Of a stretch of DNA of 64,000 nucleotides, positions 3,726 through 51,335 are shown one piece after another. The notes under the pieces were generated by a model. That model was not told the DNA's origin, did not search any database, and was given only the letters and a program-made list of their open reading frames with translations. Where the stretch lies: NCBI GenBank assembly GCA_964016885.1, contig OZ024740.1, positions 164,858,001 through 164,922,000 on the forward strand. The letters are read 5' to 3'. The position numbers and the translations under genes are program-made. Position 1 is the stretch's first letter. The number at the start of each line of letters is the position of its first letter. This stretch comes from Eledone cirrhosa. Taxonomy: Eukaryota.

Positions 3726-3980
3726 AGTGGAGGCATGTGGTCTAGTGGTAAAAGCCTTGGACTTACGATCATAATGTCATGGGCTCGATTCCTGGGTTGC
3801 GTGTTGTGTTCTTGAGAAAAAACACTTCATTTCACATTGCTCCAGTATACTCAGCTGAAAATGAGTACCAGTAATAGCTGGAGGTTTAACCCTGTGATGG
3901 ACTAGAGTCTTGTACTCTCAGTAGCTTCATGCCATAAAACCGGGATAAGCACCGGACAAATGAGCCTTCGGGTTTAAGAG
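3726..3980 (+). mobile_element. tRNA-derived SINE with CORE-like central domain
   Basis: A-box TGGTCTAGTGG, B-box GGCTCGATTCC, then TGTGTTCTTGAGAAAAAACACTT (CORE-like) and CTCAGCTGAAAATGAGTACC. Confidence 0.75.
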
Positions 3981-4597: not shown

Positions 4598-5207
<610 letters not shown>

Positions 5208-5330
5208 ATTCCTGATCTATAATACATCTGATGTATTCACTTTGAGCAATTGTTCATACTGGTAATAGGGTGGTAAACAATACTGACCTTTCCTGTTTAT
5301 AATTTTATATAATTTATATATAAGTATAAA

Positions 5331-5477: not shown

Positions 5478-5509
<32 letters not shown>

Positions 5510-5510
<1 letters not shown>

Positions 5511-5757
5511 TGTTGCATTTATCTCGCTTTATGTTCATACGAGATATCACCAAGTCACAACCAGTGACCTCAAGAGACAACAAGGTCCGCCATGTTCAAG
5601 AAAGAACATACATACACACACATGCATTTTTAGGTGTTTAGACTTGTGATGTACTTATATTGACATAATCTACCTTAGTATATGGGCAGTTCCCATTAGC
5701 ACTATCTTTTCTATTTCTCCTATACACGGGTTTCCTGGGATTTGCGATAAGTAATCA
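5510..5757 (-). mobile_element. 5'-truncated copy (3' end) of the R4/Dong element at 5986-10870
   Basis: High nucleotide similarity to 5988-6236; bounded by TTA repeats on both sides. Confidence 0.9.
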
Positions 5758-5770
5758 TTATTATTATTAT

Positions 5771-5984
5771 GTGGATTGGCAGTATCGGTAGAGGGTCGGA
5801 CGCCATGCTTTCCAACATAGTTACGTCCCTTTACGATCTGAGTTCAAATCCCGCCGAGGTTGACTTTGCCATTCATCCTTACGGAGTCGATAAAATAAAG
5901 TACCAGTAATGTACTGGGTTATTGCTGGCCTTGTGCCTAACAGTAGAAACAATTATTATTATTATCATTATTATTATTATTATT
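5771..5984 (+). mobile_element. tRNA-derived SINE (family A) with (ATT)n tail
   Basis: A-box TGGCAGTATCGG, B-box GAGTTCAAATCC, conserved body ACTTTGCC..TTCATCCTTACGG.GTCGATAAAATAAAGTACCAG. Further copies at 20966, 26570 and 62064. Confidence 0.9.
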
Positions 5985-5985
5985 A

Positions 5986-8900
5986 CAATTGCATTTATCT
6001 CGCTTTATGTTCATACGAGTTATCACCAAGCCACAACCAGTGACCTCAAGAGACAACAAGGTCCGCCATGTTCAAGAAAGAACATACATACACACACATG
6101 TATCTTTAGGTGTTTAGACTTGTGATGTACATATATTGACAGAATCTTCCTTAGTTTACGGGCAGTTCCCATTAGTACTATCTTTTGTATTTCTCCTCTA
6201 CGCGGATTTCCTGGGATTTGCGATAAGTAATCATTAGAACGCTTAGGTATCATTCCTAGAGCGCCTACAACCACTGGTATTGTTTTAGTTCTCAATTTCC
6301 ACATTTTTCCAATTTCTATCTCCAGGTCCTTATACTTGCTCAATTTTTCAAATGTTTTTATAGATACATTCTTGACTATTGGAACGGACATAACAATTAG
6401 CAGGCATACCCTCTTTTTAAAGTCCTTCAGTATTATATCAGGTCTATTTGCATCTATTTTTTTTGTCTGTTTGGATGCTAAAGTTCCACAAGATTGAGAT
6501 GTGATCTTTTTCAAGTATGGGAGGTGGTTGATGCTCCCACCAATTCTTTTGATGGGGCAGGTCAAAATGCTTTCACATTATCCAAGTATTGTGCAGCTCT
6601 GTCATGCCTGTTAGGTATTCGGTTGGAGCTATAGGACTGCACATTGAAGTTATATGATCAATGATCTCTGGTTGTTTTTTTACATACACGGCATAATGGG
6701 TTGCACCCATTTTTTATTATGTTGGCTTGATAATTTTTTGATGGCAGACACTGATCTTGTGCTGATATAATCAGTCCTTCAGTCTCCGATTTCGGTCCAG
6801 AGGATGCCAACCACTGATGGGTTAAAGTTTTGTCAACATCAGGATTGTTAGCTCTTTCTGGGTATTTTCCATACAGAGGCTTTTCTTGCCATTTCTTAGC
6901 CAGTTTCTGTAGCAGTTCTTTCTTTGCCGTTACTTTTACCTGCTTTGCTTTTTCTGTGTTTTCCATTTCAGCAGCAAATGGGACTTCTGAAATTTGTAGT
7001 CCATTACTGTATCTTTGTGCATCTTTTGTAATGGAGTATGATCTTTTGATGCTTTCGTGTTTCAAAACGAGTTTCATCATCCAATCATGTGATTCCCTTA
7101 TATATGTAGATAATCCAATTGTTGCAGTTTACAACGCAATATCTAACTGGATTAACCCACGTCCTCCTTCTTTCCTAGGGAGATATATTCTATCTGTATC
7201 TGCCTTAGGGTGATGCATTCTATGCATGGTTAATAATTTTCTAATTGTGCTTGACCAGTTGATGACATTGTAACTGTATGTTACCACTGGTATGGCAAGC
7301 GTGTTTATAGCATCGATCATATTCCTTGAATTCAATTCCGTTCTTAAGATTGCTCTTACTCTGCGGTAGCATTCCTTCCTTATCCTTTTGCTCATTGTCG
7401 AGTGCTTGATTCCGTTTCCTTCACAAACGCCTAGATATTTGTAAGTTTCCTCTTGATCAAGTTCTCTTATCACATTCCCCTGATCAAGATTAATGTCTGA
7501 AATTTTCAGCAGCTTTCCTCTGGTAAACGTTGCTTTGGCGCATTTATCTAGTCCAAACTCCATTTTAATATTATCACTGTACTGCTTCACGGTGGATAAT
7601 AGACCTTGCAATTGTTCATCATTTTTTGCAAATAGTTTCAGGTCATCCATATAGAACAAGTGATTAATGCTTTTGTCATAGACTTTATATCCATGTTTTG
7701 TTTCATTGAGCATTTTACTTAATGGTATAAGTGCGATGCAGAATAAAAGCGGTGATAAAGAGTCACCCTGAAAAATTCCACAATTAATATTAACTTCTCA
7801 GCTTCCAGTGATTTTTTTTCACTAATCAAAAGGAGTGTCGTTTTCTATGTCGTCATACTGAATCACAGGAACCTCCTGACAACGGGAGATATTTTGAAAA
7901 TCTCTAAACATTTTTCAATCCAACTGTGTGGCAAATTATCGAATGCTTTTTTATAATCTATCCAAGCAATTGATAGATTTTTGTGTCTATTATGACAATC
8001 TTCCAGTATCATTTTGTTAACCAAAAGCTGATCCTTACAGCCAAATGAGCCTCGTTTACACCCTTTCTGCTCAATAGGAAATAGATCATTTGTTATCAGG
8101 TGGTCATATGTATATTCAGTTAGGACTGATGTTAGCATTTTATACAAGTTATCGGTCTGTAATTTTTGGGATTGTTTGTCTCATCATTCTTCGGAAGTAG
8201 GAATGTAATGCCGTTAACTAGCCATGATGGTATATTTTCTGGCTCCTTAACTATTTCATTGTAAAGTTGGGCTAACCGCTCATGAGAGTCTGTGAAGGCA
8301 TTTATCCAAAAATTTGGTATTTTGTCTTTTCCTGTGGATTTCCGTTTGCTGGTTTTTCTTAGAGCCAAACGCAACTGTTCAACTGTTATATTTTCCCATG
8401 TTTGTTCCTCAAGGTGAGCTGTATCTTTCATTTGTCTGTCTATCCATGGGGCTTGTATATTATGAACTTTTTTCTTCGGCCCAGATCTTTTTCCAGAATT
8501 CTTGCACTTCCTCCTTGGGTGGTATTGATTTAGCAGTTATTGTTGACTTGCCAATTTTTCTGTAGAAGTTTCTTTGGTTGTTTTTGAACATATTATTGTC
8601 CTTATAAAATCTAGATCGTTTTTCAAAGCGCCTTATACGAGCAGCTTTGTCCGACACTTTTTGCTTGATTATTTCTATCAGCAGTCTATGTCACTTGTTG
8701 ATTTTATACTGTATTTTCTTTTCAATTTTCTAAGTTTAGTTTGTTTAACATGTTCACCTACTTTGTAGTTTGTTAAAATTTCTATGTCAGATCGGAGAAG
8801 GTTTATTTGGCGATTGATCTTCCCCTGCCAAGTAGAATACTTGTGGGAATTCCTTTGTTTTTTAATTTTCACTCCACATAAGTGAGTGGGGACCTTAGCC

Positions 8901-10870
8901 GATGCATAATAGAGATGATTTAGATCAGTAATGTTTAGTTTGTTTCTGATGATAATGTTTTTGAGAATTATGTTAGTTTTGTGTATTATCTTTTGGTTCT
9001 GTTTGGAGTTCTGGATCTTAGGGAGAGTGTCTCGTTCCCCCATGTCAGATTCTTTCATTTTCATCCATTCGATCATAATTTCCTCCTTCAAGTTGTCAAG
9101 TTCATTCTCATTCATTTCTTTATCATTTATGATCTCATTGTTTTCATTTTGTGTTTTATCTTGAGCATGCACTCCCTCCTCTTTTTCGATCATTTCTTTA
9201 ATTTGTTCTGCTGTCAGTGATTCCGTCCTAACCCTGGGATTCGAAGTGTTATAATTTACCTCGTTTTCACTGACACATGTTTCATTTTCCCTTCGCTGAC
9301 TTTGTGCTAATAGCTTGATCTGATCAATTTCTATATCAGTTAGTAAGTTTTCTTTAACAATATTTCTTCGTATATTGGCTAGTTTGTTACTGTCAATATA
9401 GCCTCTGTTTTCGGTATGTTTCTTTTTCCAGTTGATATATGTCTGTTCTGTATTCCATCTATTTGATGGGTAGTACATGGCAGTGTAGAAAGCCTCAAGG
9501 ACTTCTTTGTTGTCTTCCCTTGACCATTTTTCTCTCTTTTTCTTTGGATTTCTTGGTGGTAAGCAATGAGGGCCAACAGTAGGCGTATTCCAGTTATGGG
9601 AGGTCTCCAGCTCCGAAGTAATGGGAAGGTTTGAACCATTAGCTGATTTTTCGAACCCAATCTGGTCCCTCTCTGAGGGGCGCGGCCCTTTTTGACCCGG
9701 GTGACGGCCGATCCGGTATGAGATTTTATCATTTGACATTTACTTTATTTTGTCGCGTTTTATCCTTAACCGCCAAGGGGTAATCATTTCGTGTTACCAC
9801 TTCTAGGACGAGTGTCAACCAAGACTAGAAGGGTCGTCCTCCCCTAGAGACACGGCTATTCCCCGCCGGCCGCCTTCCCGTTATTTCTTGGTCACGGGTG
9901 TTTTCTGTTTTTGTTGTTTTTTAAATTGTTATTATCATGAGTGGTTCCTTAATGTGAGCATTGCGTGGCTTAAGATTGAAATTATTATTAATAATATAAT
10001 ATACTTTTTGTTGAAGTTACCAGTTGTTGTTGTTCGCTATGTCGTTGGTGGTGATGGGGCTTTTTCTATTGTTGGTGGGGTATGGGGGAGCCAGCGGTAC
10101 CATAGTCGTTGACGTTTGACCGGGTCACTAAGTCAGTCTACTCATATCTTTGCTAGCCTCTCCCTTGTCTAGTGATACCGCCACCTTCCCCTTTCTTAAG
10201 TTAACAGAAGATAGTGGGGGAATAGTGGTTGTAGCAATGAAGGAGTGGTGGCGGCGGTGATGGGATAGTGGTTTCAATGATGAAGTGGTGGCGGCGGTGA
10301 CTATAGTGATGGCGTTGTCGTTATTGAGTTTTGTTGAATAGACTGTAGTAGGATGCGTTTGTTTGATCTGTATATCTATGCGGTTTGTCGCGTATGTTTA
10401 ATATATGTGTTGACATATTTTCTTAATATTTGAATTAAACATTTTGAGAAAACTTGAGATACAATAATAGTAATTATTATTATTATGCTGGGATTGTTGG
10501 TGGTTGTGGTGAAATTGCCGTTATCTGGCTGTTGTATTTAGTGTACACGGAGGGGTTATGGGATAGGTGGTGTATCTAGGTTGTTGTGGTGGTGAAATTG
10601 CTGTTATTTGGCTGTTCTATATAGTGTAGACAGAGGTGGTTTTCTTCCATTTATAACCATTTTCTTTTTTTAATATAACATTTATAATACAAAATTGAAT
10701 ATTTGAGCGATATTACAGGATATTATGGGTCCTCATTTCCCGATAGTAGAGCCTGGTCCTTAATGGCCCATTTGTACTAAGAATTGTTATATCACAATTG
10801 TTTTAAATACTGTAAATATCAAAAACTTACGGGAGCGATTCCATAACACTCTATCCAACACGTGCATCTT
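5986..10870 (-). mobile_element. Apparently full-length R4/Dong-clade RLE retrotransposon #1, bounded by (TAA)n
   Basis: Disrupted single ORF plus ~1.1 kb 5' region; TTA tracts at 5951-5984 and 10871-10899. Dong-type R4 elements are known to target TAA repeats. Confidence 0.85.
6137..9739 (-). pseudogene. RT + CCHC + restriction-like endonuclease ORF of element #1 (frameshifted)
   Basis: KWSREDN N-terminal motif; NYRPITC; EQKGCKRGSFGCKDQLL; WIDYKKAFD; HLFYMDDLKLF; CRVC zinc knuckle; NRPDII...EKLSKYKDL RLE; PVVVGALG. Confidence 0.92.
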
Positions 10871-10899
10871 TTATTATCATTATTATTATTATTATTATT

Positions 10900-13800
10900 G
10901 TTCTTTGAGTCTCAGTCATTGATGTTAGTTAACTGGAAAGTTTGTTGAAATGAATATCAAGCCACTACCTGCAGCCTCAGATATTCAGGACGTATCGGAG
11001 GGTTCTTGCTGTTCCCAGCAAGCATGCCTTTTAAAGCGTACCAAAAAGCGTGGCGGGGCCAATTTTCTTTAACCATCCCTGGAAACTTTTTGAGATAGTA
11101 CCTAGTGCGCCTATGACAATCGGGACCATTTTGACTTCATGGCAGTTCCAAATGCTTTTTACTCCCACTTTAAGTCCTGGTATCGGTTAATTTTCTCCCT
11201 CTCCTTCTCTTGCACTCTCGTGTCGAATGGGCAGGCCACATCCACAATCAGGCACGATCTTTTTTCCTTATCCAAAACCACCAGGTCAGGTCTATTGTGT
11301 TCCAGTTTCTTGCCCGTTGGTATCCTAAAATCCCACAGCACCTTCACCTGATAGTTTTCTATCACCGACTCTGGCTTGTGCTCATACCACTTCTCAGAAT
11401 GTGGTAAATTGTTTACTTTGCATAGTTGCCAGCGGTTCACCCTGCCCATCACATCATGTCTCCAGCCCTTATATTGAGTCTGGGCTAGGTGTTTACACTC
11501 GGATACAATGTGAGCCACAGTCTCCTCTCTCTCTCCACAGATCCTGCACAGTGGCCTAGCCTCCTCCTTGTAAATAAGGTGTTTCAACCACTTCCTTTTG
11601 AGGGCCTGCTCTTGCGCAGCCATTAGCATTCATTCTGTAGCCTTTTTAAGGTCTCCTCTTTTCAACCAGTTCCATGTCTGTGGATTTCTGAATTCAGTTT
11701 TCTCAAAGAAGGTAATATGAAGGGATTTTTCATGAAGGCTGCTCTTTCTCCTTGTTGTTATTTCCTCCTTGGACAACCCCTGGTCTATTGTCCTCTCCTT
11801 CAGTACAATTCTGATTATTGTCTCCTTACTATCAGTCGCGTATTTGTGTAGGTTGTTTTTCTCCATCTGAACACAGTCCTCTATGCTGATAAGTCCTCTT
11901 CCACCTTCAGATCTCCTTAAGTAGAGTCTATCGACATCACTTCTCTTGTGGAACATGTTGTAGATAGTCAATAACTTCCTAGTCTTCCTATCCATTTCTT
12001 TTTGTTCAGCAACATTCCATCTCAGAATTCCCGCACTGTACCTAATAATAGACACAGCTCAGGAATTTACTGCACTTATGGCATTCCTACTGTTCAGATG
12101 TGAATTTAATACGCTCCTTACTCTCCGAATGTATTCAGATCTTATCAATTCCTTCATTTTTTTGTTCTTGATGTCATCAACCTCCGGAACCCCTAAATAC
12201 TTGTATCCTTCTTCAGTGTCAATTTCCTTTATCATCTCACCTGTTGGTACCTGGATTCCGTTGCTTCTGCTCAATTTACCCCTCTTCATCACAAGGACTC
12301 CACACTTACTAATACCAAATTGCATACATATATCATTGCTGAAAATACGGACAGTGTCAACAAGCACATCCAACTCCTTCTCACTCTTCCTGAACAGCTT
12401 AAGATCGTCCATGAAGAGGTGGTGATTGATGGTAAGCTCTCCCTTTCCCAACTTGTATCCTGCTCTCACTTTTCGCAGTATAATGGTCAGGGGCATCAGG
12501 GCAAGGACAAACAACAGAGGGGACAGACTATCTCCCTGGAAGATACCTCTCTTGATCTTCACGCCTCCCAAGGATTCTCCAGCTGATGTTAATTCTGTTT
12601 TCCAGGACTTCATACTTTTGCCCAACAACTGTCTGATGTTATCTGCCACCTTGAAGATCTCCAGGCTTTTGGTGATTCCAGAATGAGGCACCATGTCAAA
12701 TGCCTTTTTGTAGTATATCCATCCCATGGCAAGACCAGTGTGTCTCCTCTTGCAATTCCTCATTACCATCTTATCAATAAGTAACTGGTCCTTTGTACCA
12801 CGGGACTTCTTTCGGCATCCTTTCTGTTCGTCCGGTAACAAGTTGTTTGTGTGGAGGTGATGGTAGATTTCCTCAGACATAATGCTTGTCAACAGTTTCC
12901 ACATTACGGACAGACATGTGATAGGTCTATAGTTGGTAACATCATTACCCTTGATTCGGTCTTACATTACCAGAGCTGTGGTACTTTTTGTCAACCACTC
13001 TGGTACCTCACCTGACATCAACGAGTTATTGAACATGGTTGTCAGTTTCGATTGGAGGTATGTTATATTTTTAATCCAATACCCCTGCACACCATCTGGG
13101 CCTGGTGATTTCCAGTTGGTTAGTTTTTTGGCCTGCCCCTTAAGAGTTTCAACTGTGATACTCAAATCAGTTTGTTGATGTGCCTGTTCACTAAACTCCT
13201 TTTGTACTGTCTCAATTCACACTGCCTGGTCATTATGTTTAACATCCTGCTCCGATATTCCTCTCCAGAATGTCTTAGTTTGTTCCGCCTCAGGGATCAA
13301 GTTGTTGCCTCTTTCTTTCCCTTCAAGCTGTCCAAACAGCATTTTCTGGTTGTTGTCAAACATACGTTTCTGTGTATACTGACTGACTCTGCTCTCGTAT
13401 CGCCTAATTTTTGCACTCTTTGATACAATGCGTTGCTTCAGTTCCTCTATGATAATATTTAGCTTTTTCCTCCTAGTTTTGTACTTTATTTCCAGTCTAT
13501 TTTTAGTGTCTATGTTTTTTAGTGTCCCATTCAGTAGGTACTCAAGCTTTCCAATGTCATTTCTCATTTCCCTGATTTGACCATTCAGTCGTTTCTTCCA
13601 CCAAGGTTCTGATTTTTCTTGTTTGTTGTTTCCTCTCGCTTTTATGCCAAGTAATTTCCTCACCGCATTTGCTGTTGCTTTGAGAATATTGTTGCACTGG
13701 TGAAGGCTCCTCGCCTCAAGGTATGGGATGACTTTGTTTACCTTAGCTGTTGTTTCTTTTAACTTTTTCCTGTCTACAAACCTTAGGTTCATAGGTTTCC

Positions 13801-15262
13801 CACTATCATTGTTCAATTCATCTACCACTAAGTTTAGGATATCAACCAAATCTTGTCCTAGCCCGTCAGCATTCATCTCCTCAATGGCCGTATCTCTGTT
13901 CCAGGTATTATTTATTTCAGCATTCAGATTATTTTCTGCTTCGGATGGTTCCTCCGTTCTCTCAACCTCTTCACCTTCATTTCCCACTGGCTCGTTTGCC
14001 TGGCATACTCCACCCTCCATTTCCAACACAATCTCTCTGCTCAGTTCCTCCAGTTCCAGCTCGCTTATCCACCCATTAGCTCTTATTATCCGAGCCTGCC
14101 CGGCCAATTTTTGTTCATCTAATTTAAATAGACCAATCTCGTTCCAGATGTTATGCATCCGTTTCCTATAGCCTTTCTCCTTGGGGTTACTCTTCAGGTA
14201 ACATTGCATAACAGTTCTATTCAATTCTTTCGTCCAGTTGGTTCTGATCCCTTTCCTTCTTCTTCTTCCTCCGACACCAGCAGTATTTGATTGACAGCCA
14301 GGTCTCTGCTGCTGAGCCAGGGAGCACCTTCTGGGTGAGAGTCTGTCACATGACATACCAGTCTCAACTTCACCGTTATTCGAACTGTTTAGGTTCGACA
14401 TTTAAACACTGTTATCGAGGATTGGTGAATGTATGGTTCATTAACCACAGGTGATTTCATCACCTCCAGTGATTTAATCACCCCCGGTGATTTTAGTGTG
14501 GCACTATCACGCTGTAGACGAACATAAATAAACAAACAAATAGGTAACAAAAAAAAAAATGAATAAGTTTCATTGTAATGTAATGTTTGAATGTCTGACT
14601 TATTTTTCTTTCCTTCTCCGTCTGTCTGCTTGTTTTTCTTTTCATTTTTCTTTTCTTTACGTTTTTCGTTGTTGCTGTGCTGTTTTGATTTTGATTTTGA
14701 TTTTTGTTTTTTTGATTTTTTGACCGGGTCATCAAATCAGTCTATTTATATCTTTTGATTCCTTCCTCTTTTAGTGAGGACACTACGATGCATGTCTTAG
14801 CAGGAGGTATTGGGAGAGAATAGCGGCGGTAGCGATAATGAGGCAGTGGTGGTGGTGATGTGATCGTAGTACTGTAGTGATGGTGTTGAAGTTGAAGTAG
14901 AAATAGAAGTTGAGGTAGCTTGACTAGAGTTTTTGGCGTGGTAGTGGTGATGGTGGCGGGGGTGGTCTTGGTGGTGAAATTATTTGCCTGTCTGTCCACT
15001 TAGCCATTTAGCTATTTAGCCATTTTGCCATTTTCCTCTTTTTCGACTATAACATTTCTGATCCAAAATTAAATATTAAATATTGGGGCCCTATGCCTTA
15101 AAGTGATGCGTTATGTCTTGCTGAGTGTAAAAAGACTGTAATCTTATACGTCATTTGTAATAAGAATTATTCTATCACAGTTGTTTTAAATAAGTAAAAA
15201 TCAAAAACTTACGGGAGCGATTCCATAACGATATATATCCACCATGTGCGTTTTCTTCCCTT
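10900..15262 (-). mobile_element. Apparently full-length R4/Dong-clade RLE retrotransposon #2 (different family), head-to-tail with #1
   Basis: Bounded by TTA tracts 10871-10899 and 15263-15308; single long ORF plus ~0.85 kb 5' region. Confidence 0.85.
10980..14401 (-). pseudogene. RT + CCHC + RLE ORF of element #2 (one frame, five nonsense codons)
   Basis: ORF pieces 14401, 13165, 12904, 12055 and 11629 are all in frame. Motifs: [81 protein letters not shown]. Confidence 0.95.
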
Positions 15263-15269
15263 TATTATT

Positions 15270-15308
<39 letters not shown>

Positions 15309-15525
15309 GGCGACCTACGTAGTAAATCGTATCATCGTGAGCTCCGCAAAGGTTTGTTATTTTCAGTTATTTAAAATTGCCATTTATGGAAAATATTTAT
15401 TGTTAACTATATATAAGTGCACATACATTGATTTCTGAAAAGGACACTCAAAAATATTGGGGCCCTGAGCCCAAAATTTAAACTTTTTTATAATTATCAA
15501 ACAAAAATGTTTTCTTTGAAAAATA

Positions 15526-17302
15526 GTGGATGACTCAGATTCACTCCTTCCTCACAATCCAACACCTCACACCGACACCACCATTGTAAACATTGCTACG
15601 TTTGCCAACACTGGAATTGTAAGCAGTAGCAATATTTTAAATTTGTCTCAGGCAGACGTTCATTTCCCGCCATTACCAATGACTGCAGGTGTTAAAGCCG
15701 CCACTAGCACCACCACCACCGCCACAACCCCCCCCCCCCCCCCACCACCACCACAGCGACAAAAGAAACAAAAGAAAAAAATAAATTAACTCATGATATC
15801 GAAATGAATTCAACCAAAATGAACTTTTCCACACCAAACACCACTGACGCCACCACCACCACAACTGAAACTAAAATTAACAATAGCAAAAATAACGATA
15901 ATAACAACAGCAACAATGAAATTCAGAAGCAAAAACGTGCGAAGCGATCCAGGTAACTCTGGAAGAATTAGACGAAGCCAAAGGAATGGTAAAGAAAGAT
16001 GGGTACAGGGTCAGCCTCACCCCACCACCTAATAAAATGGAGCAACGTCGTCTATGCAGCGTGTCTTATCGGACAATAAACATAAAATCGCGCCGAGTGG
16101 AACGGGCATCTGAGTCCCAAATCCAAAAAGCTTTGGGACATGTGTGGGCAAAAAAACCCACATCAGATATGGGCAGAAGTATGGAACCGTGGACGTGTTC
16201 TTTGAAACACCACAGGAGGCAGAGAACACTCCATGGCCCCATTAAGAAGTGACGACTTCACACTCATCCCAAGCTATTGTGGCCAGAGACTTGTGAAGAT
16301 TAGGGTGACCCACGTTCCACCGGCCATCGAAATTCCCTGGCTAATGGCTGCCGTCCTCGCCGGCATCGAGGCCAACACCAAAATAATAGAAATAGCAAAA
16401 AAAAAAAGCAGGAGAACTGGTCCGGATCTGGGATGGCGCTCCTGATCCAAGCGGACCATAAAAGCATTGAGAAGGTCCCAGAAGTAATAGACCTCACTGA
16501 CGGCAGCCACCTCACCGTAATCGTCGAGGGCAGAAGACCTAGGTGTGTCGTTTGTGGTGAAGGAAGCCACCTAAGGGCTTTCTGCTCTCAGGCTAAAAGG
16601 TTGAGGCCACCTCTCTTACCCACCCAAGTGACTCAACCATCAACACCACCAGCAGCAGAAATAGCAGCAACAACTGTAGCAGCAACAACAGAAGCAACTG
16701 TAACAGTAACAACCCCTGCAACATTAGCCAAACCAACACCACCACCACCCAACGCCCCAGAACTAGCACCAGCGCCTACACCTTCCACCACGCCACAACC
16801 CAAACCAACGCCTGTGGAGGATTTTCCACACCCCGGCTTATCGCAACTGGAGACAGATTGCGACAACGAGGAGTGGGAAACGGTATCAGGAAAAAAGAAA
16901 AAAAAAAAGAACCAAAAAAGAAAAAATTCTCTTCCTTCCCCCTCAAAAAACAAAATACAGAGGGAAACAAATAAATTATCGAACAAGAAAGTTAAGACAG
17001 ATATGCCACCATCCACACCAGCATCACCAACCCCATCACCACAAACACCAACACCACCACCACCATCACCAACACCACAAAAGTCACCAAAAATCGTAAC
17101 AGAAACAAACCCACAACAAACGCCAACAAAACAAAACAACCAAAACGATACACACTACACAGCATTAAATTTGAACAACAACCAATTATTACACGACATG
17201 CAACACAACACCAGCATCACAGAAAAAGACTACACAACAACCCCAAAATTCACACCACCTCCACACATACAAACCATCCTTCTTCTACGAGAAGTAAGGT
17301 AA
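15526..17302 (+). pseudogene. Tx1 ORF1 (gag-like, zinc knuckle, Pro/Thr-rich), frameshifted
   Basis: VIVEGRRPRCVVCGEGSHLRAFC (CX2CX4HX4C) and WETVSGKKKK basic motif. Start position approximate. Confidence 0.8.
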
Positions 17303-17336
17303 GTGGTCTTTCCCATCTTTTCCACTACATTTCAAC

Positions 17337-20300
17337 ATGACCTCACTCAGAATAGGCAGCATAAATGCGCGTGGCTTGGGGTCGTCATGTAAGAAGGGCC
17401 ACCTGCTCAACGACCTCAGGTAACTAAACATAGATGTAGTGGCCATCAGCGAGACCAGAATCTCCGAAGCACGGGCCTACGCAGCGATCTTTGGCGGCTA
17501 CGATGTGTACGCATCTCCCAGCCATCCGGGATCGGGGGAAGGAGTTGCTGTGCTTTTTCGGAGAGGTTTCGATTTCGCCATATGGGCCATCTTCCTGGAC
17601 CCAGAAGGTAAGTTGGTGGTGCTAGACGTGACCAGCGGAGACGGGCAAGCTTTCAGGCTAGTGGCCGATTTCTTCCGGCGTCTGGAGGCCTTTCTTGGAA
17701 CTTCCCGCTCTTTAGTGTTAGTGGGCGACTGGAACGGGATCTTAGATGCACGCTGGGACTGTAGGGATTAGCGTATAGGGGAGGAGGGTGCAAGAGCCTC
17801 ACCAACCTGCTCAGGCGTTTTGAACTGTCTGACAGGTACCGATTGGATTTCCCGAAAGAGCCAATGTGGACTTGGACAAATCGCATAGGGTCATCCAGAT
17901 CATATCTAGATAGAGTATTTTGTAGAGAAATAGATAGGTCTAGCATAGGCTGTCCACAATTCAAGATAGTCAGCTACACGGACCACAAATTCGCGATCTG
18001 AGTGCTTGACTTAGATAGGCTTCATAGACGAGGACCCGGCTACTGGAAGCTAAACGTGTCCTTACCAGCGCGCACGGCCTACAGAGACGGATTAGCGAAC
18101 TAGTTAAGCGGGCGTTGATGGAGGCCATCGTCAACAACAAGTGGAGGTTTGCTCTGAAAAGAGCAATTATAATAGAGTCCATTAGGTTTAGTAAGGCTTT
18201 AGCAATAGAGAAAAATAGAGCAGAGGGAGAATTAGTAAGAAAATTAGACGAGGCGTTTAGCAAAGGCATCGCGACCGACGTACTTTCGGGGAAATTGGCC
18301 CTTGACTAATTATTCAATGCAAAGCACGAAGGCTGCGTTGTCAGAGCTAGGGTGCGTGCTCTCAGACACGAGGGAACGAAAACCGTTCAATGGGCCCGAG
18401 TGGCGGAGGCGCGTCGTGGCAACAAAACCACGATCCGGTCTTTGGTGGACCACGACGGGCGCATGCCATTCGATCCCGGGCAAATGTGTGAAGCTTTTCA
18501 GCGATACTTCGCTCAGTTGTTCGGGGGAATCGGCGGGCCCGATCAAGGGATGGGTTTAGTGTCTACCTCGACGGAGTGCCGCGACACAGGCCACTGAGGC
18601 GGAATGTTGCGAAAAGCCGATAACAGCCGCTGAAGTAGGGGAGGCAATGACTAGCTGCACAAGTGGTAAGTCGCCTGGTTTGAATGGTCTGCCCTATGAA
18701 CTTTACGTACAGATGCCAGACTTGTTCGGAGGCCTCTTGGCGGATGTCTACTGCAACTGGCAATAGAACGGGAGAATTCACAGCTCTGTGAGCCGAGGAG
18801 CTGTGGCGCTGCTGAGAAAGGGTCCAAACAAGGAGGTTAATATAGATAATTTTAGGCCCATAACTCTGATAATCACAGAGTTCAAAATTTTGTCCAAGGT
18901 GCTAGCAAAGAGGTTGGCGCTTGTCGTTGGTGGTCTGGTGGGAGAGGCGCATACATGCGCCATCCAACAGGTCCATCCACGACAACCTCCACCTCATGCG
19001 ATACATCCGGTAGCTAGGGAATCTGGCACGGGTGGGTCCTTGATCAATTTAGATCAGTCGAATGCTTTCAATAGGGTCGACCATCGTTACCTAGCGGCAG
19101 TCCTGAGGGCGGCTGGCTTTGGGCCCGTCTTCAGAGGCTGGATCGCTGCCATGCACAGTGACATCTGCTCTGTGTTGAGAGTGAAGGGTCACCTTTCAGA
19201 ACCGTTCAACATCATGCGCTCGGTCCGCCAAGGATATCCCCTCTCGTCCCTCTTGTACGTATTGACTCTCGAGCAATTACTGCACACACTGGAGACGTTG
19301 AGGGGGGCCCGCGCGAACTAGGATGCGGAAGATCCGTGTCAGCATATGCGGACGATGTCACCGTAGTGGTGGCGAACGCCAAACACATCGAGGCGATCGG
19401 CACTACACTAAGAGAATACGAAGCGGTGACAGGAGCAATGATCAACCAGGAAAAGTCAGTGGGCCTGCAGCTCGGCACCTGGAGAGGCAGGTCCATGCCA
19501 TCCAACAGCGTCGTCGGGCGTTGGACGGACGGGCCAGTTAAATTGTTCGGGGTCTGGTTCGGTCCGGATCTCCAGACGGACAAAAACTGGGACGAGGTGA
19601 CGAGCAGGGTGGCTTCTCTCACCCAGAAATGGGCCGAGAGGAAGCTATCCCTGAAAGGTCGAGCGGAGGTGGCTAACCCGTACATCGCGTCCGTCATCTA
19701 CTACCGCCTGACCGTCATACCTTGTCCTAAGCCCCGCCTGACTGCGCTGGAGCGTTTGCTCTTTCGCTTTTTGTGGAAAGGACGCGCTCCGATGGTCATA
19801 CGGTCCATCCGCTGTCAACACCCGCTACGTGGAGGGCTGGGAAGGCCGTGGCTGATGATGCGCAGACACGCGCTCAGGCTACGACATCTCCACCTCTTCC
19901 TCGACGGTGATCAGGTGTGGTCTCCGTTTGCTAGACGCGTCTTTCCCCAGCTCGTCTCATTGACGGAGCTGCAGACCTGGGTCAATCGAAGACCGAGAGG
20001 GACCGCTTGGAGACAGGAATGTCTTCAGGCGCTCACAGCCCTCGACCAATCGGGCAATGTGATCGGTGGAAACTCCACCTTGGCGTTCTATAGAGGATTG
20101 GTGGAGGGGAAGAGCGACGACGTACTTGGGGAAACTCTAGGTGTCGACGAAAATCAACTAGCGAATCTCTTCGGAAGAACTTTCGGGCCGGGGCCTATGG
20201 ACAACTTCCAGAAATGCCTGGCCTGGCAGTGCTACCGATGAGCTTTGCCTGTTCGGGATAAACTCTACAGGCATGGAGGTGCCGTCAGCCGGGCATGTCC

Positions 20301-20674
20301 GAGATGCGCGCAGGGCGATGAAACCGTCCTGCACGCACTCATCCAGTGTCCGAGCATTGCTGGACGGATCCAGCTATCAGCTGAGCCCATCGTGAGGATT
20401 GCTCCGCCCTCTTCCTTTAGCCGGGAAGGGCAGGCAGTTTTTATCTGTCTGGTGGTCATGGCGAAAGAGATAGTATGGTGGACACGTTTGAAAGGGCTGA
20501 AGACGAGCACTTACCTCTTCGGTGATGCCCGGATTAACTTTTTTCAAATTTCATTTGAAAAGGAAAATCAGGGTAGAAAGCGAAGTGCTCTCTTCCCAGC
20601 ATTTTGTTGAAAGATGGGTGAGAGAGGCAAGAATGGCCCGAGTGAATCGGCCTACTCTGAGTATGTGTCTGTAA
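17337..20674 (+). pseudogene. Tx1 ORF2: APE endonuclease + RT + C-terminal Cys/His motif, disrupted
   Basis: MTSLRIGSINARGL; AISET; LVGDWN; SYLDRV; YTDH; GYWKLN; NFRPITL; SVRQGYPLS; AYADDV; CPRC...ETVLHALIQC. Confidence 0.93.
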
Positions 20675-20965
20675 ATTAAAGGTGGAAAACTGGGAGAGGG
20701 CACTTGCCCTGGTGGTCAGGGTCAATGTGGATTTTTAATGGGCTTTCTCCACGAATGTCCCTCCGAAGTCTCCCCCCTATTGGGGAATTTTTTCATTGTT
20801 CTATTATTACATCCTCTGTTTATTGTTTTTTTTACACGCAGAAATGCCCATTTGTACCGCCCTGTATTGTCCTGTACTATCCTTAATGTCTACTTTATGT
20901 AAACCCTTGTGGTTAATAAAGAAATCATTATTATTATTATTATTACTATTATTATTATTATATCC

Positions 20966-43729: not shown

Positions 43730-45275
43730 ATGCAAAAGACAAACACAAATAACAGGAAACGACACAGTGAAATATAGAAATATATTCTAGTTTACGCTTG
43801 ACATATCAAGAAAAAAAGTTTTAATTTAGCATGTGTGACGGTGGACTAGGTAGGGATGATAGTGGCTAGTGGTATATAAGTTGGTGCGAGCGTATGTATG
43901 CAAGATTAAAGAAATTGGGGTGGGGAGTTGAGTTCTTTAAGGAAACTGGAACCAAGGCTGAACATCAGGCGCCTCTCAGTCCTGGTGCGCGAGGCCAGTG
44001 TACCGTGATATCAAAGGACACCAAGGATTGAAATATGTAGGAAGGAGTGACACTGGGAAAGAAATGACGAGCGACGGGGCCAAGTCGTATGCTCCTCAAG
44101 TGTTCAACGAAACGGTCCGTCAGACGGCGGCCTGTTTGTCTGATGCAGAACACTATGTGGCTGGTTGTGTAGATGAAGGAATGGTGCATATGGAAAGAAC
44201 TCTTAGTGTATTTGAGAGCGGTGAGGTTAGAAATGAAGGGTTTGGTTTACCTGGGGGTGATTACGGGCGTGCTTAAAAGCTGTGATGGGGTGGTTGGGAA
44301 AAATCGAGAAGCGAAAAGGAGAATATGTTCCGGAAAGATAGGGTAAAGAGGTGATAGGTGAAGAAAAAAGGAAGGTTGGTGTTTGGAAGGCAGTGGTGGG
44401 ATGAGTGGGCTATGTAAAGGGTGGTTTCACGGGCGCAGATGAAGGCAGCTTGGATCAGTGTGGGGGAATAACCACGCTGGATGAAGTAGGAGTCCATGTG
44501 TAGGGACTGGGTCTTGAAATCCTGCTCCTGGCTACTGAGCCGACGAAGACGGAGGAATTGTGAGTAGGGTATGGAGAATTCGGTGCGGGTGGGATGGAAA
44601 AGGAGCTGACGTCGAGATAGGAGTGGGAATCAGTGGGCTTATATTAGATGGATGTAGAGATTGTGTGGTGAGTGTGGTCGATAGACAGTGAGATATCGAG
44701 ACATTGAACTAAACAGTTGGTGAAGGCGAGGGCAGGATGAAAAGACTGGACAAAGTAAGAAAAGATTCATTGTTCATGGGAGAGAGATGTGGCGACGATA
44801 CAATCGTCGATGTAACGACCGTATAGCACATATATCGGACCAGTGTAGTGGATCAAGATCAAGCCCTCAACGTATCCAACGTATAAGTTCCAATAGTTAG
44901 GCACAATTCTAGTACCCATGGCTACCTCAGAGAACTGCTGATAAAACTCTCCGGAAAAGGAAATAAACAATGAGTGTGAAACGCGCTTAAAAAGGCGAAG
45001 AAAAGTAGATGTGCTTGGGTAGGGCTTAGAGCGTAAGTCTAAAATTCATGACGACGACGGTAGAGATGGAGTTAATGTACATGGTAAAGAGAAGACGAGA
45101 GGAGTCAGAAAGGAAGGGGAGGGTGTTAAAATGTTGAAGGGCATGATTAGTGGCATGGATGTGAGAGGTTACTTCGGTCACTTCAGCTACAATTGGGGCG
45201 TGGTGGGTGTCAATATATTGGGAGATTATTGCGTTTGGGCAGTTAGAGGCGGAAACAATAGGGTGGTCGGGATTA
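43730..45275 (-). mobile_element. Degraded PLE (RT + GIY-YIG + 3' pLTR)
   Basis: PIVSASNCP; FYQQFSEVAMGTRIVPNY.NLYVG; YGRYIDD; KPTDSHSYLD; IPYSQFLRLRRL; YFIQRGY; TGRRLTDRFVEHLRSI..PVARHF. Confidence 0.9.
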
Positions 45276-45464: not shown

Positions 45465-45814
45465 AGGGGGAGAGAGGGAGAGAGAGATGTTTGTATGTAT
45501 AAATAGATAGATAGACTAAAATATACATAAATAATAAATAGATAGATAGATAGATAGATAAGTTTCTATTTATTTGCCACGAAGGCACAAAAGAAGGGGA
45601 CAAATACAGTGGGGGGGGGGGGGGGGGTTACATAAAGGAACGAGTAAAAAAAGCAAATAACGAATATAAAATTAACAATACAGTCCTCAATAGGGAGGAG
45701 GCGTTTTGGGGGCTACACACACCCCCGAAAAAGTGTGCAACCCTTTTCCTTAGGAGCACAGAGAGGGGGTGCTCCTTTGAACTTCCACCTTTCCACCTAC
45801 AGGCTGATAAAGAG

Positions 45815-48800
45815 AGAAGGCCCATTCACACGGGCCATTCTCGCTACTTTCACCCACCTTTCATAAAATTTGCTGGGCGTAGAGCACATCTCTCTCCATT
45901 CTGATCCTTCTCTTAAAATGGTATTTAAAGAAAAGGACCAGTTGTTGGCCGGAGAGAAAGGTAACCGATCTCAGCCCTTTCAAACGTGTCCACCATACCA
46001 CCTCTTTCACCATAGCTATTACACAGAGGAAGACCGCCTCTCCTTCATTTTTGAAGGGAGGAGGCGGCTTGATCGTTACAATGGACTCGGTGGTCAACCG
46101 GATTGGTCCCACCCGTGACAGCAGTCGTTCGACATAGCCCCACAGATCGGCAACGCCCGAGTAGTGTACCAATGCGTGCGGAACGGTTTCCTCGTCGCGC
46201 ACGCATCTGGGACAGATCTTTTCGAGGGGTCCCTACCCGGGCGCCGCGTCTGTAGAGCTTTTCTCGAACGGGCAGCACCCCTCGGTAGCACTGTCCATAG
46301 GTCCCGGGCAAAATGTCCTCTTGAATAGGCTGGCCAGTTCGTCTTCTTCTATGCCTAGGGGTTGTCCGAGGGCGTCGTCGCATCTACTAACCACCAGCCT
46401 TCTATAGAATGACGAGGTGGAGTCTCCACAGATAGCCAGGTCCGCCTACCAGAGAGCCGTGAGCACCTGGGCACACTCGGTGTGCCAGGCGCCCAAATTT
46501 CTCGGTCTTTGCTTGACCCAGGACTGCAGCTCGGTGAGCGAGACGAGTCTCGGAAAGGCTCGCCTCTCAAACGGGGCCCACACCGGTTGACTGGTGAGGA
46601 ATACCTGGAGGTGAGGTAGCCTTAATGCGTGTTTACGCATCAGCAGCCACAGCAACCCCAGCTCTCATTTCGAAGGGTGTTGACAGCAGATGGATCTCCT
46701 CACCAAAGGAGCCCGCTTCTTCCAAAGGAATTGGAATAGTGCGCGCTCCATTTTGGTGAGTGTTTCGCTTGGACAAGGCACGACGGTCAGGCGGTAATAG
46801 ATGACGGACGTTATATAAGAGTACGCCACCTCCGCCCCACATTTCAGGGATAGTTTGCACTCAGCCCACTTCTGCGTCAGCGCAAACACCCTATTCGATA
46901 CCTCACCCCAGTTCTTCTCCACCTGGAGGTCTGGCCCGAACCAGACCCCTAGCAACTTCACCGGGCCCTCCGTCCAACGTCTGACGACGCCGTTCGAGGC
47001 CATCTATTTTCCCCTCCACTCGCCGAGTTGCAAACCGACTGACTTGTCCCGGTTCAGCTTAGCCCCTGAAAACTTTTCGTATTCCTCCAGTAAGGTGCCG
47101 ATCACCCCGATTTCCGAGGCGGTTGAACCATTACTGTCACGTCATCGGCGTAGGCCGACACCGCTTTCCGCAATCCCGGTTCCAAAGGGACGCCCTGTAA
47201 CAACACCAACGCAGCAGTGGCTCTAGGGCCAATACATACAGAAGGGATGAGAGAGGGCATCCCTGTCGGATGGACCGCGTGATTTCAAATGGCTCCGAGA
47301 GGTAGCCGTTCACCTTGACCCTAGAGCAGATGCGACTGCTGTGCATGGCAGTGATCCAGCCCCTGAAAATGGGTCCGAAACCTGCCGCCACTAGCACCGC
47401 ATCCAGGTAACGATGGTCGACCCTATCGAACGCCTTAGATTGATCCAAGTTGATCAGGGCCCCACCAAAGCCGGGTTCGTTCCCAATCCTCTCTATGATG
47501 TATCGCATGAGATGGATGTTGTCGTGAATGGACCTAGACGAGATGGCGCATGTCTGCGCATCTCCCACCAGGTTGCCCACGACAAGCGCCAAACTATTTG
47601 CTAACACCTTGGCCAAAATCTTTAACTCTGCATTTAGCAGAGTTATTGGCCTAAAATTACTTATTTCATCCCGTCCTTGTTCTCGCCCTTCCTCACTAGC
47701 GAGACTACGCCCTTGGTCACAGAACAGGGAATTCTCCCGTTCTGTTGCCAGTTGCAGTAGACCGCCTCGAGGAGATCGACGAACAAGTCCGGCATACTTA
47801 AATACCGTTCGTATGGAAGACCATCGAGGCCCGGAGATTTGCGTCTGCCGCATTTGCTCAGCATGTCCCGTATTTCAGCAGCTGAAATCGGCCTCTCGCA
47901 AGACTTCGCCTCCTCGTCCAAAAGACGCGGCAGACCGTCGAGGTATGGCCCGAAGACCTCATCCCTATCCGGCCTCTCGCCCCTTCCGAACAATCGGGCA
48001 AAGTGCCTTTGAAAGGCCTCGCACATTGCTTAGGTTCAAGGATCACCCGTCCATCCTGGTCGCGCCAAGACCGGATAGTGGATCTAATCCCACTTTTGGC
48101 TTCTGTCACGCGGGCGCAGTTAACAGCTTTGGTCCCCACGTTTCCCAGCACGTATTTTGCTTCGGACAACGCAGCCTTCGCGTTTCGCGTCGAAGAACTG
48201 GCACAAGACCGTTCTCGACGCTGGCACTCCGGCTACGTCGCCGCTTCTAATTGCCTCTTCTACATTATCTACCAACTCCCTTTCCTTCCTATTTCTATCT
48301 GAGGCTAACTCCTTACTAACTCCTATTGAAGCTATTCTAATCTCTCTTTTGAGGGAGCCCCACCACCCGCTGTTGACGATGGCGCCCGTCAACCGCTCCT
48401 TAACTAAAGTACTAATCCGGTCCCTGTAAGCTTTACTTGCCGGTAAGGACAAGTTGAGCTTCCAGTAGCCGGGTCCCTGTCTATGCGTGCTATCAAGGTT
48501 GAACATGGAGGTCACTAACTTGTGGTCTGAATAGCTAACCATGAGCATTTCTGGACAAGTTAAAAAGTCCCTATCCTTATTTCTAATTAATAACCTATCT
48601 AGGTACGATCTAGATTGACCGCTAAGGTTTGTCCAAGTCCAGGTTGGCACAGTCGGAAAATCTAGTCCATATCTATCGGCAGCTCGAATCGGCCGATTAA
48701 CCTCTTGAGGCTGTTACAACCCCTCTATCAGGACATGCCCCTACATAGTCCCAACGTGCATATAGAATACCATTCCAGTCCCCCACTAAAAGCAAGGAGA

Positions 48801-49187
48801 GAAAAGTCTCCAGACGTTGGAAGAAGTCCGGCCGCGCAGACCCAAAAGGGGCGTAGGCGGTGACGAGCCTAAAGGCTCCGCCTTCACCACTGCCAATGTC
48901 TAAAACCACCAGTCGATCCTCCGGCTCCAGGTGTACCGTCTGTGTTGTGAGACCCAGATGTTTTTGCAGCAGAGCGACAACCCCACTCCCACCTCCGGGT
49001 TGACAGAGAGATGCGTGCATCTCAAAGTCGTCAAAGGTGGGGGCTAGTTGGCCCACGCTGATGATCCGGGCCTCGCAAATGACCATCACATTTATACAGC
49101 GTGACTTGAGGTCATTTAGAAGTTTTGCTTGCTTCCAATATGAGCCCAGGCCATGCGCATTTAGACAAGACACTCTCAAACAGCCAT
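45815..49187 (-). pseudogene. Tx1 #2 ORF2 (APE + RT), frameshifted
   Basis: LRVSCLNAHGL; LVGDWN; SYLDRL; YSDH; GYWKLN; KSPGLDGLPYE; NFRPITLLN; LDQSKAFDRVDH; IRQGCPLS; AYADDV; ETVPHAL. Confidence 0.93.
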
Positions 49188-51128: not shown

Positions 51129-51335
51129 GTATGGTGTCCATTATCGTAAGTTGGTATACAAATTTTCAAAGTAGTTTCTACCCCCAAAAAGGGGTAAAAA
51201 TAAAATAACCACCCGTCTGCAAGTCCAAGCGGGAGGTTAGGTCACACAAATAAAGCAAATAAAAAATAAACTCAGTCAAAAACGTAATACAAATCCAAGA
51301 GGCTGCAGCCGAAGTAACACACGTCTACTATCACC

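What the first reader, a model, noticed from the sequence alone, without database searches (positions are those of the whole stretch)
9900..15380. Two divergent RLE retrotransposons share one 5' leader that also resembles the Tx1 5' end: possible promoter capture across LINE clades
Seen: the ORFs of R4/Dong #1 and #2 align by eye only as protein, yet their 5' regions (10870->~9900 and 15262->~14510) are collinear homologues. They share an identical 30-mer ATCAAAAACTTACGGGAGCGATTCCATAAC (10818-10847 = 15200-15229), a similar ~100-nt terminus, a GGTGGTGAAATT block, and TTTGACCGGGTCA..AA.TCAGTCTA (~10115 and ~14719). The leader is AC-rich and Thr/Pro-coding, like the start of Tx1 ORF1. The Tx1 #1 5' end (15309-15380, GCTCCGCAAAGGTTTGTTATTTTCAGTTATTTAAAA) resembles the leader terminus (GCTCCCGTAAGTTTTTGATTTTTACTTATTTAAAA) and faces it head-to-head across the TTA tract; this match is weaker. 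Established: 5'UTR replacement is known within L1 lineages. Inference: a portable internal-promoter module is exchanged between RLE- and APE-type LINEs that meet at the same (TAA)n target. Alternatively it is a separate non-autonomous element that repeatedly lands just upstream of RLE elements.
Basis: partly seen in the sequence, partly recalled or inferred. Interest (0 to 1): 0.78.

Follow-up and report, generated by a model that had tools for sequence, protein, structure and literature searches.

The report
Dong retrotransposons captured a Tx1 promoter
Two very distant families of one kind of jumping gene (Dong/R4 LINEs) begin with a 5' end taken from an unrelated kind (Tx1 LINEs) and have since swapped it between themselves, which likely gave them their own promoter and would be a rare case of a start signal moving between retrotransposon clades.

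Summary
Both leaders are fixed parts of their Dong/R4 (RLE) families: leader-selected loci ran into the matching RLE body in 30 of 30 and 30 of 30 cases. The two RT domains are 44% identical, yet the first 99 nt are 86% identical. A third family has a leader-1-type 5' end on an RLE2 body, so leader and RT trees disagree (AU p=0.029). The neighbouring Tx1 is only a weak match. An older Tx1 family elsewhere in the genome (Tx1-g) aligns with leader 1 at 157 of 231 columns, through the ORF1 start codon; a profile without the core motif hits both leaders at E~1e-6. The core motif sits near +26 to +44 in several Tx1 families and in the leaders. Outside Dong relatives lack it. Best reading: an old Tx1-to-RLE capture of a 5'UTR plus ORF1 start, then swaps among RLE lineages. 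No reverse transfer was seen. The head-to-head layout comes from opposite orientation in one microsatellite. Promoter activity and the capture route are inferred; no RNA run was available.

The parts
5986..10869 (-). Dong/R4-type RLE LINE, family RLE1, full length, ORF broken; flanked by (TAA)n
   Evidence: RVT_1 hit; C-terminal CCHC and PD..D-type region aligned to P0001; ends
9900..10869 (-). Leader 1: Tx1-derived 5'UTR, dead ORF1 start, Thr/Pro-rich low-complexity stretch and later additions
   Evidence: 30 of 30 loci continue into RLE1; aligns with Tx1-g majority at 157 of 231 columns
10826..10836 (-). Core motif GCTCCCGTAAG in leader 1, likely a downstream promoter element; contains a GTAAG splice-donor-like word
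   Evidence: position; same motif near the 5' end of Tx1 families d, e, f, g
10644..10653 (-). Retained start codon context matching the predicted Tx1-g ORF1 start
   Evidence: alignment runs through this ATG; position
10470..10487 (-). (TAA)4 run inside leader 1, near where similarity to a Tx1-g copy ends; candidate old insertion junction (inferred)
10115..10151 (-). Block shared by leaders 1 and 2, origin unexplained
   Evidence: 86% over 37 nt; no Tx1 ORF1 core match
9740..9898 (-). GC-rich structured 5'UTR of RLE1 between leader and ORF start (ATG 9739); likely the older RLE1 5'UTR
   Evidence: near-invariant in 30 copies; no Rfam family at gathering score; no HDV descriptor match
10871..10899 (.). 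(TAA/TTA)n target between RLE2 3' end and RLE1 5' end
10900..15261 (-). Dong/R4-type RLE LINE, family RLE2, full length, ORF broken (start 14401)
   Evidence: RVT_1; RT 70% identical to outside protein P0001; 44% to RLE1
14560..15261 (-). Leader 2, homologous to leader 1 and to Tx1 5'UTRs
   Evidence: 30 of 30 loci continue into RLE2; motif-free Tx1-g profile E 1.1e-6
15208..15218 (-). Core motif in leader 2
14719..14755 (-). Shared block, leader 2 copy
14512..14560 (-). Pyrimidine tract ending in CAG; acceptor-like, but a similar tract is in a leaderless outside relative of RLE2
   Evidence: sequence; L191/L200; no spliced genomic copy
15262..15308 (.). (TAA/TTA)n target between RLE2 and Tx1 5' ends
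15309..20925 (+). Tx1-type APE LINE (family a), full length, ORFs broken; opposite orientation to the RLEs; a cousin of the donor
   Evidence: Exo_endo_phos E 3.4e-8; RVT_1; 30 of 30 5' ends continue into ORF1
15339..15346 (+). Tx1-a variant of the core motif (GAGCTCCG)
   Evidence: same word reported about 40 bp from the start of frog L1s (PMC5381506 section 9)

Best explanation
The leaders of the two Dong/R4 families are homologous to the 5' untranslated region and ORF1 start of Tx1 LINEs from the same genome, are fixed parts of the RLE elements, and have been swapped between RLE lineages; they likely act as a captured internal promoter. Inferred route: a TAA-specific RLE inserted in the sense direction into an AAT run of the Asn/Thr-rich ORF1 start of a Tx1-g-like copy. 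The Tx1 promoter then read through to the RLE 3' end, and the RLE protein, which recognises its own 3' end, copied the whole chimeric RNA. Later crossovers in the shared ACC-rich block moved the 5' end between RLE lineages. Shown: homology, fixed linkage, mosaic families, tree conflict. Inferred: promoter activity, direction, route.
For: Linkage: 30 of 30 and 30 of 30 leader-selected loci. In loci chosen by ORF start alone, 30 of 30 RLE1 and 27 of 30 RLE2 extend into their own leader, with scattered truncation points; 15 of 30 and 9 of 30 reach the first bases. Divergence: RT 44% between RLE1 and RLE2, 68% between RLE2 and outside P0001. Mosaic: RLE2b has an RLE2 body (RT 86-87%) and a leader-1-type first ~700 nt; leader tree groups RLE2b with RLE1b at 100/99; AU rejects leader 2 + RLE2b, p=0.029. 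Tx1 origin: Tx1-g loci, 18 of 25 with a Tx1 ORF1/ORF2 hit downstream and 19 of 25 in TTA orientation. Its majority aligns with leader 1 at 157 of 231 columns through the ATG; motif-free score 102 vs 27+/-4, 0 of 1000 shuffles; motif-free profile E 1.1e-6 and 2.1e-6. Raw copies agree: window leader 1 vs L300 161 of 252 columns. Direction: leaders form one branch (92/93) among Tx1 5'UTRs; no motif in 48 outside Dong-like loci nor upstream of 21 of 21 RLE3 copies. Bombyx Dong self-cleaves from a co-transcript (PMC3774820 passages).
Against: No RNA data, so no start site or promoter activity was shown. The RLE-leader branch is not starred (92/93), and AT-rich 225-column trees are weak. Tx1-d (111) and Tx1-a (99) score about as well against Tx1-g as leader 1 does (102), so the exact donor is not pinned. 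Beyond the motif, families a, b, d, e, f match the leaders only weakly (mean z 1.6). No folded ORF1 core remains in the leader; this fits capture inside the low-complexity start but gives no protein-level proof. No present-day sense insertion of RLE2 into a Tx1 ORF1 was found (1 pattern match, not ORF1; 1 of 61 adjacency rows in the same orientation). The core motif is no better conserved among copies than its flanks. Tx1-g was first found through the motif itself.
Confidence: 0.78

Rival explanations
1. Same Tx1 origin, different route: the 5' end was added by a reverse-transcriptase template switch from RLE RNA to Tx1 RNA, or by DNA recombination or inversion inside head-to-head arrays.
For: Head-to-head RLE/Tx1 pairs are very common (58 of 61 rows). 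Tx1 families shuffle 5'UTRs among themselves: d and e share a 5'UTR but not ORF1, e and f share ORF1 but not the 5'UTR. Strand switching is a proposed source of L1 mosaics (PMC3600994 passages).
Against: TAA runs sit at or near internal junctions of leader 1 and of old copies L286 and L343, as target-site insertion predicts. An inversion step has no support here. Confidence given is the share within the Tx1-origin reading.
Confidence: 0.35
2. Convergence or a common host source: RLE and Tx1 5' ends independently gained the same host factor site or U1 splice-donor word in AT-rich sequence, with no Tx1-to-RLE transfer.
For: Against Tx1 a, b, d, e, f the match outside the motif is weak. GTAAGT is the splice-donor consensus (recalled). 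Short promoter motifs recur across divergent L1 families (PMC5381506 section 9).
Against: Motif-free collinearity with Tx1-g over ~130 nt at E~1e-6, and alignment continuing through the ATG.
Confidence: 0.08
3. The leader is a separate non-autonomous element that repeatedly lands upstream of RLE copies.
For: Old Tx1-like 5' ends in TAA orientation sit before four different RLE lineages (RLE1, RLE2, one RLE3 copy L286, one P0005-like copy L347), and L346 has no RLE body within the locus.
Against: 60 of 60 young leaders run into their own RLE body with no TAA break at a shared junction. 5' truncations run smoothly through leader and UTR. Leader subtypes track body subtypes (RLE1b, 30 of 30).
Confidence: 0.05
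4. Vertical inheritance, or the reverse direction: the leader is an ancestral Dong 5' end kept since RLE1 and RLE2 split, possibly donated to Tx1.
For: All young RLE leaders form one branch.
Against: RLE2 groups with outside proteins and with leaderless L191 rather than RLE1. 86% non-coding identity cannot easily persist where RT is at 44%. The ATG the leader retains is the predicted Tx1-g ORF1 start. Tx1 5'UTRs are more diverse than the leaders.
Confidence: 0.05
5. The leader is a short first exon plus intron: the motif is a splice donor and the RLE2 pyrimidine tract the acceptor. This can coexist with the promoter reading.
For: GTAAGT at about +50 and a pyrimidine tract ending in CAG at 14512-14560.
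Against: 0 spliced genomic copies for that junction; no such joint among the 15 listed of 161 in contigs of unknown kind; RLE1 has no comparable tract; a similar tract exists in leaderless L191.
Confidence: 0.2

Closest known systems
5'UTR recruitment and exchange in mammalian L1 (PMC3600994 passages; PMC5381506 section 9 and passages)
   Same: A LINE gains a non-homologous 5' promoter region, and 5' ends then move between co-existing families.
   Different: There the exchange is within L1. Here the donor is an APE-type Tx1 and the recipients are RLE-type Dong/R4 lineages, and a dead ORF1 start came along.
Bombyx Dong and R2/R4 elements (PMC3774820 passages)
   Same: Single ORF with RT, CCHC and RLE; (TAA)n target.
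   Different: Bombyx Dong self-cleaves from a co-transcript with an HDV-like ribozyme at its 5' end. These families start instead with 700-1000 nt of Tx1-like leader, and no ribozyme was detected.
5' extension of SINEU-2 from a master copy inserted in another element (PMC4494074 passages); SVA_F1 promoter capture (recalled, not read)
   Same: Upstream sequence of a host element becomes the fixed 5' end of a new family by read-through or template switch.
   Different: Those are non-autonomous elements; here autonomous LINEs of two endonuclease types are joined.
Tx1-clade microsatellite-specific LINEs (PMC4640811 passages)
   Same: The donor and the window neighbour are APE LINEs with target specificity; here they insert in (TTA)n orientation.
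   Different: Only their 5' end is found on the RLE elements.

Membership tests
R4/Dong clade RLE LINE (RLE1, RLE2) | RT domain related to R2-group elements | tested here: met
   RVT_1; relative P0001 matches R2 structures best
R4/Dong clade RLE LINE (RLE1, RLE2) | C-terminal CCHC knuckle and PD..D..K restriction-like endonuclease, no APE | tested here: met
   motifs read in alignment to P0001; weak HSDR_N_2 hit in P0001 and no APE hit
R4/Dong clade RLE LINE (RLE1, RLE2) | (TAA)n target | tested here: met
   flanks in window and copies
R4/Dong clade RLE LINE (RLE1, RLE2) | RT tree placement with named R4/Dong references | not testable with these tools
   only unnamed relatives were available; clade name rests on structure, target and recall
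R4/Dong clade RLE LINE (RLE1, RLE2) | 5' HDV-like self-cleaving ribozyme as in Bombyx Dong | tested here: inconclusive
   no Rfam match, no descriptor match, but no positive control was run
Tx1 clade (window neighbour and donor Tx1-g) | Two ORFs, ORF1 with zinc knuckle, ORF2 with APE and RT | tested here: met
   window: Exo_endo_phos, RVT_1 and zf-CCHC; Tx1-g: 18 of 25 loci hit Tx1 ORF1/ORF2 by blastx, although Pfam did not score the L303 APE piece
Tx1 clade (window neighbour and donor Tx1-g) | RT tree placement in Tx1 rather than L1 proper | not tested
Captured LINE internal promoter | Homology to a donor 5'UTR beyond short motifs | tested here: met
Captured LINE internal promoter | Conflict between 5' end tree and RT tree | tested here: met
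Captured LINE internal promoter | Transcription starts at the first base and depends on the leader | not testable with these tools
   no RNA run listed; shared sharp 5' start in copies is indirect
Non-autonomous element upstream of RLE | Stand-alone copies with own 3' tail and target flanks | tested here: not met
   0 of 60 young leader loci stand alone

The most novel reading that the evidence does not exclude
Dong/R4 elements in this genome gave up the ancestral co-transcription and self-cleavage strategy for an L1-group internal promoter stolen from Tx1 elements that share their microsatellite target. That promoter then circulated among up to four RLE lineages (RT identities 30-45%) and enabled their expansion to thousands of full-length copies. 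TAA arrays would act as a promoter exchange between LINE clades.
Probability: 0.45. Interest if true: 0.78.

Novelty: new variant of a known kind. Interest (0 to 1): 0.64.

Why it matters
5'UTR replacement is well described inside L1, and tested R2-group elements rely on host transcription plus a ribozyme. Here an RLE LINE carries the 5' end of an APE LINE, with the donor family still recognisable in the same genome and later swaps visible as mosaic families. It gives a testable answer to how site-specific RLE elements become transcriptionally independent, and names a candidate core promoter motif for Tx1/L1 elements in a group where none was found in my searches. Dong-R4 and L1-Tx1 are among the most active LINEs reported for Octopus vulgaris (PMC13282606 Table 1 passage); that this genome is octopus-like is my recalled guess from repeat content and was not tested. 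It also warns repeat annotators that these 5' ends will be mislabelled.

Tried and rejected
RNA: no RNA holder listed. The three runs laid were contigs of unrecorded kind from one sample; they show joints between leader 1 and leader 2 positions, as mosaic families predict, and say nothing on expression. Spliced genomic copy of RLE2: 0 matches for one junction. Present-day sense insertion of RLE2 into Tx1 ORF1: 1 match, not ORF1; RLE1 was not tested this way. Tx1 ORF1 core remnant in the leader: HMM scores below shuffles; a by-eye likeness was rejected. Antisense Tx1 3' tail in the 3' part of leader 1: score 34 vs 34+/-3.5 in shuffles, rejected as unproven; the version in L343 looks closer by eye only. 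Ribozyme: no Rfam family at gathering score in the window or in four outside loci; no HDV descriptor match. Window Tx1 #2 and Tx1-c 5' ends do not match the leaders over the first 120 nt. L286 first looked like a capture snapshot, but its 5' end is in TAA orientation and no Tx1 remainder follows, so it is better read as an old leader joined to a truncated RLE3. Eight-row alignment A1 was too loose for a locus scan. Earlier findings: three look-ups returned nothing. Literature: ten searches listed no report of a Tx1 5' end on an RLE element; the library lacks most subscription papers, and Repbase was not searchable. Supplements were not read.
Full report
Anatomy. The stretch holds two full-length, decayed RLE LINEs in tandem on the minus strand (RLE1 5986-10869, RLE2 10900-15261) and one APE LINE on the plus strand (Tx1-a, 15309-20925), separated by TAA/TTA runs. 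RLE1 and RLE2 align as DNA only in the leader (86% over 99 nt and short blocks) and as protein at 34-52%; their RT regions are 44% identical.

The leader belongs to the element. Searches of the genome with leader 1, leader 2 and the Tx1-a 5' end gave 2902, 2527 and 1922 candidates, of which 40 each were scored and 30 each fetched, the window copy included. All 30 leader-1 loci continue into RLE1, all 30 leader-2 loci into RLE2 and all 30 Tx1 loci into Tx1 ORF1. To avoid selecting on the leader I also took loci by ORF start alone. There 30 of 30 RLE1 copies (five are one tandem array) and 27 of 30 RLE2 copies extend into their own leader; the other three are truncated below it. Truncation points are scattered, and 15 of 30 and 9 of 30 reach the first bases. 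Full-length copies of both families begin at the same homologous base. A separate non-autonomous element is not supported.

Leader and RT histories differ. RLE2 is closer to outside proteins (68-70% to P0001) than to RLE1, and groups with them and with outside locus L191. A third family, RLE2b (L089, L170, L188), has an RLE2 body but a leader-1-type first ~700 nt, switching in the ACC-rich block. A subfamily RLE1b was found in 30 of 30 loci. In the 5' tree RLE2b is sister to RLE1b at 100/99; holding leader 2 with RLE2b is rejected (p-AU 0.029), while holding leader 1 with RLE1b is not (p 0.11). Further mosaics appear among the loci.

The Tx1 link. Against the neighbouring Tx1-a the match is collinear over about 200 nt at 61% and beats shuffles, but is weak after bias correction. 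Because RLEs read into (TAA)n and Tx1 into (TTA)n, I searched for the core motif behind a TTA run: 319 overlapping matches against 0 for the control. Of 19 distinct loci, 15 had a Tx1 ORF1 hit, 2 a Tx1-type 5'UTR without one, and 2 were RLEs. These families (d, e, f) carry the motif at +26 to +31, the leaders at +41 to +44, mostly with an A-run ATG 160-190 nt further on. Outside the motif they match the leaders only weakly (mean z 1.6 over 36 pairs). A second search that excluded the known contexts gave 31 matches against 10: of 30 loci, 20 were RLE leaders, 1 Tx1-e, 7 other Tx1-like 5' ends and 2 unrelated. Two of the seven (L270, L292) match the leaders without the motif at z 3-11.

The closest donor family. 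L270 led to an old family, Tx1-g (315 candidates, 25 loci). Of these, 18 have a Tx1 ORF1 or ORF2 hit downstream, 6 none and 1 a distant RLE piece; 19 of 25 sit in TTA orientation. The majority of 24 copies (L322 left out) aligns with leader 1 at 157 of 231 columns and leader 2 at 127 of 201, and the leader-1 alignment runs through the predicted ORF1 ATG. A profile built without the motif hits leader 2 at E 1.1e-6, leader 1 at 2.1e-6 and the window Tx1-a at 0.004. Single raw copies give the same result. Against this: Tx1-d and Tx1-a score as well against Tx1-g as leader 1 does, so Tx1-g may simply be near the root of this Tx1 group. The leaders, with three old copies, form one branch among the Tx1 5'UTRs at 92/93, short of strong support.

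Direction. None of 48 outside Dong-like loci holds the motif; L190, L192 and L193 start right after TAA with a 270-310 nt GC-rich UTR. An old family in this genome, RLE3, has its own 5'UTR and no motif in 21 of 21 upstream stretches. Bombyx Dong self-cleaves from a co-transcript (PMC3774820, passages). Frog L1 families share GAGCTCCG about 40 bp from the start (PMC5381506, section 9), the same word as in Tx1-a; this short match is a lead only. Old Tx1-like leaders in TAA orientation also precede an RLE2-lineage copy (L343), one RLE3 copy (L286) and a P0005-like copy (L347); the last two are single loci.

Mechanism. Shown: Tx1 homology, fixed linkage, RLE-to-RLE exchange. Inferred: the leader is an internal promoter, as the shared sharp start and the position of the motif suggest. 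For the route I favour insertion of an RLE into an AAT run of the Asn/Thr-rich ORF1 start followed by read-through. The leader keeps the ORF1 start but not the folded core. TAA runs lie at internal junctions. L073 and L079 show that such runs in a Tx1 ORF1 start are hit by TAA/TTA-specific elements. No present-day RLE example was found, so template switching stays open. Head-to-head pairs dominate (58 of 61 rows, some repeated) simply because the two clades face opposite ways in one microsatellite.

Comparison and verdict. It works like L1 5'UTR recruitment (PMC3600994 passages; PMC5381506) and like SINE 5' extension (PMC4494074 passages), but crosses from an APE to an RLE clade. Passages of two octopus repeat papers mention Dong-R4 without describing its 5' end (PMC13282606; PMC9115989). 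Other papers read in passages: PMC4640811, PMC5786205. Ten searches listed no report of this arrangement, within a limited library. Family labels a-g, RLE1b, RLE2b and RLE3 are my own. Verdict: real, a new variant of a known kind, interest 0.64.

Noticed in passing
L190:55-120, L192:55-110, L193:1-70 and 3775-3840: Outside Dong-like elements begin right at the TAA junction with a conserved stem-loop motif (variable hairpin, fixed 8-nt loop that could pair with the first 7 bases). No Rfam family and no HDV descriptor match; candidate self-cleaving RNA.
   Followed up: partly
L154, L169, L174, L178, L159, L176: Tx1 families shuffle 5'UTRs among themselves: d and e share the 5'UTR with very different ORF1 cores; e and f share ORF1 with different 5'UTRs.
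   Followed up: partly
L238-L267 (RLE1b leader): A ~45-nt piece of the genome's common SINE tail is fixed inside the RLE1b leader, inserted at a TATTATT run.
   Followed up: no
window 9740-9898: GC-rich structured RLE1 5'UTR, near-invariant in 30 copies, with a small hairpin loop resembling the outside motif by eye.
   Followed up: partly
L151, L272, L291: LINE 5' ends turned into satellites: a ~44-nt repeat from the Tx1-f ORF1 start, a 79-nt repeat from leader 2, and a long AAC/CAG array after a Tx1-g-like 5'UTR.
   Followed up: no
L116-L120: Full-length RLE1 copies in a head-to-tail array with a period of about 4.9 kb (at least seven units listed).
   Followed up: no
window 45560-51335 (-): Second Tx1-type element inserted in (GATA)n, 68% identical to Tx1-a over ORF2, with an unrelated 5' end lacking the core motif.
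   Followed up: partly
window 4738-5210: A 473-nt near-palindrome (87% to its own reverse complement).
   Followed up: no
window 5478-5760 and 5954-6236: The RLE1 3' tail occurs twice (94% over 283 nt), with a SINE between: a short 5'-truncated RLE1 copy downstream.
   Followed up: no
window 43900-45050 (-): GA-rich element with RT-like and GIY-YIG-like wording by eye, possibly Penelope-like (recalled resemblance).
   Followed up: no
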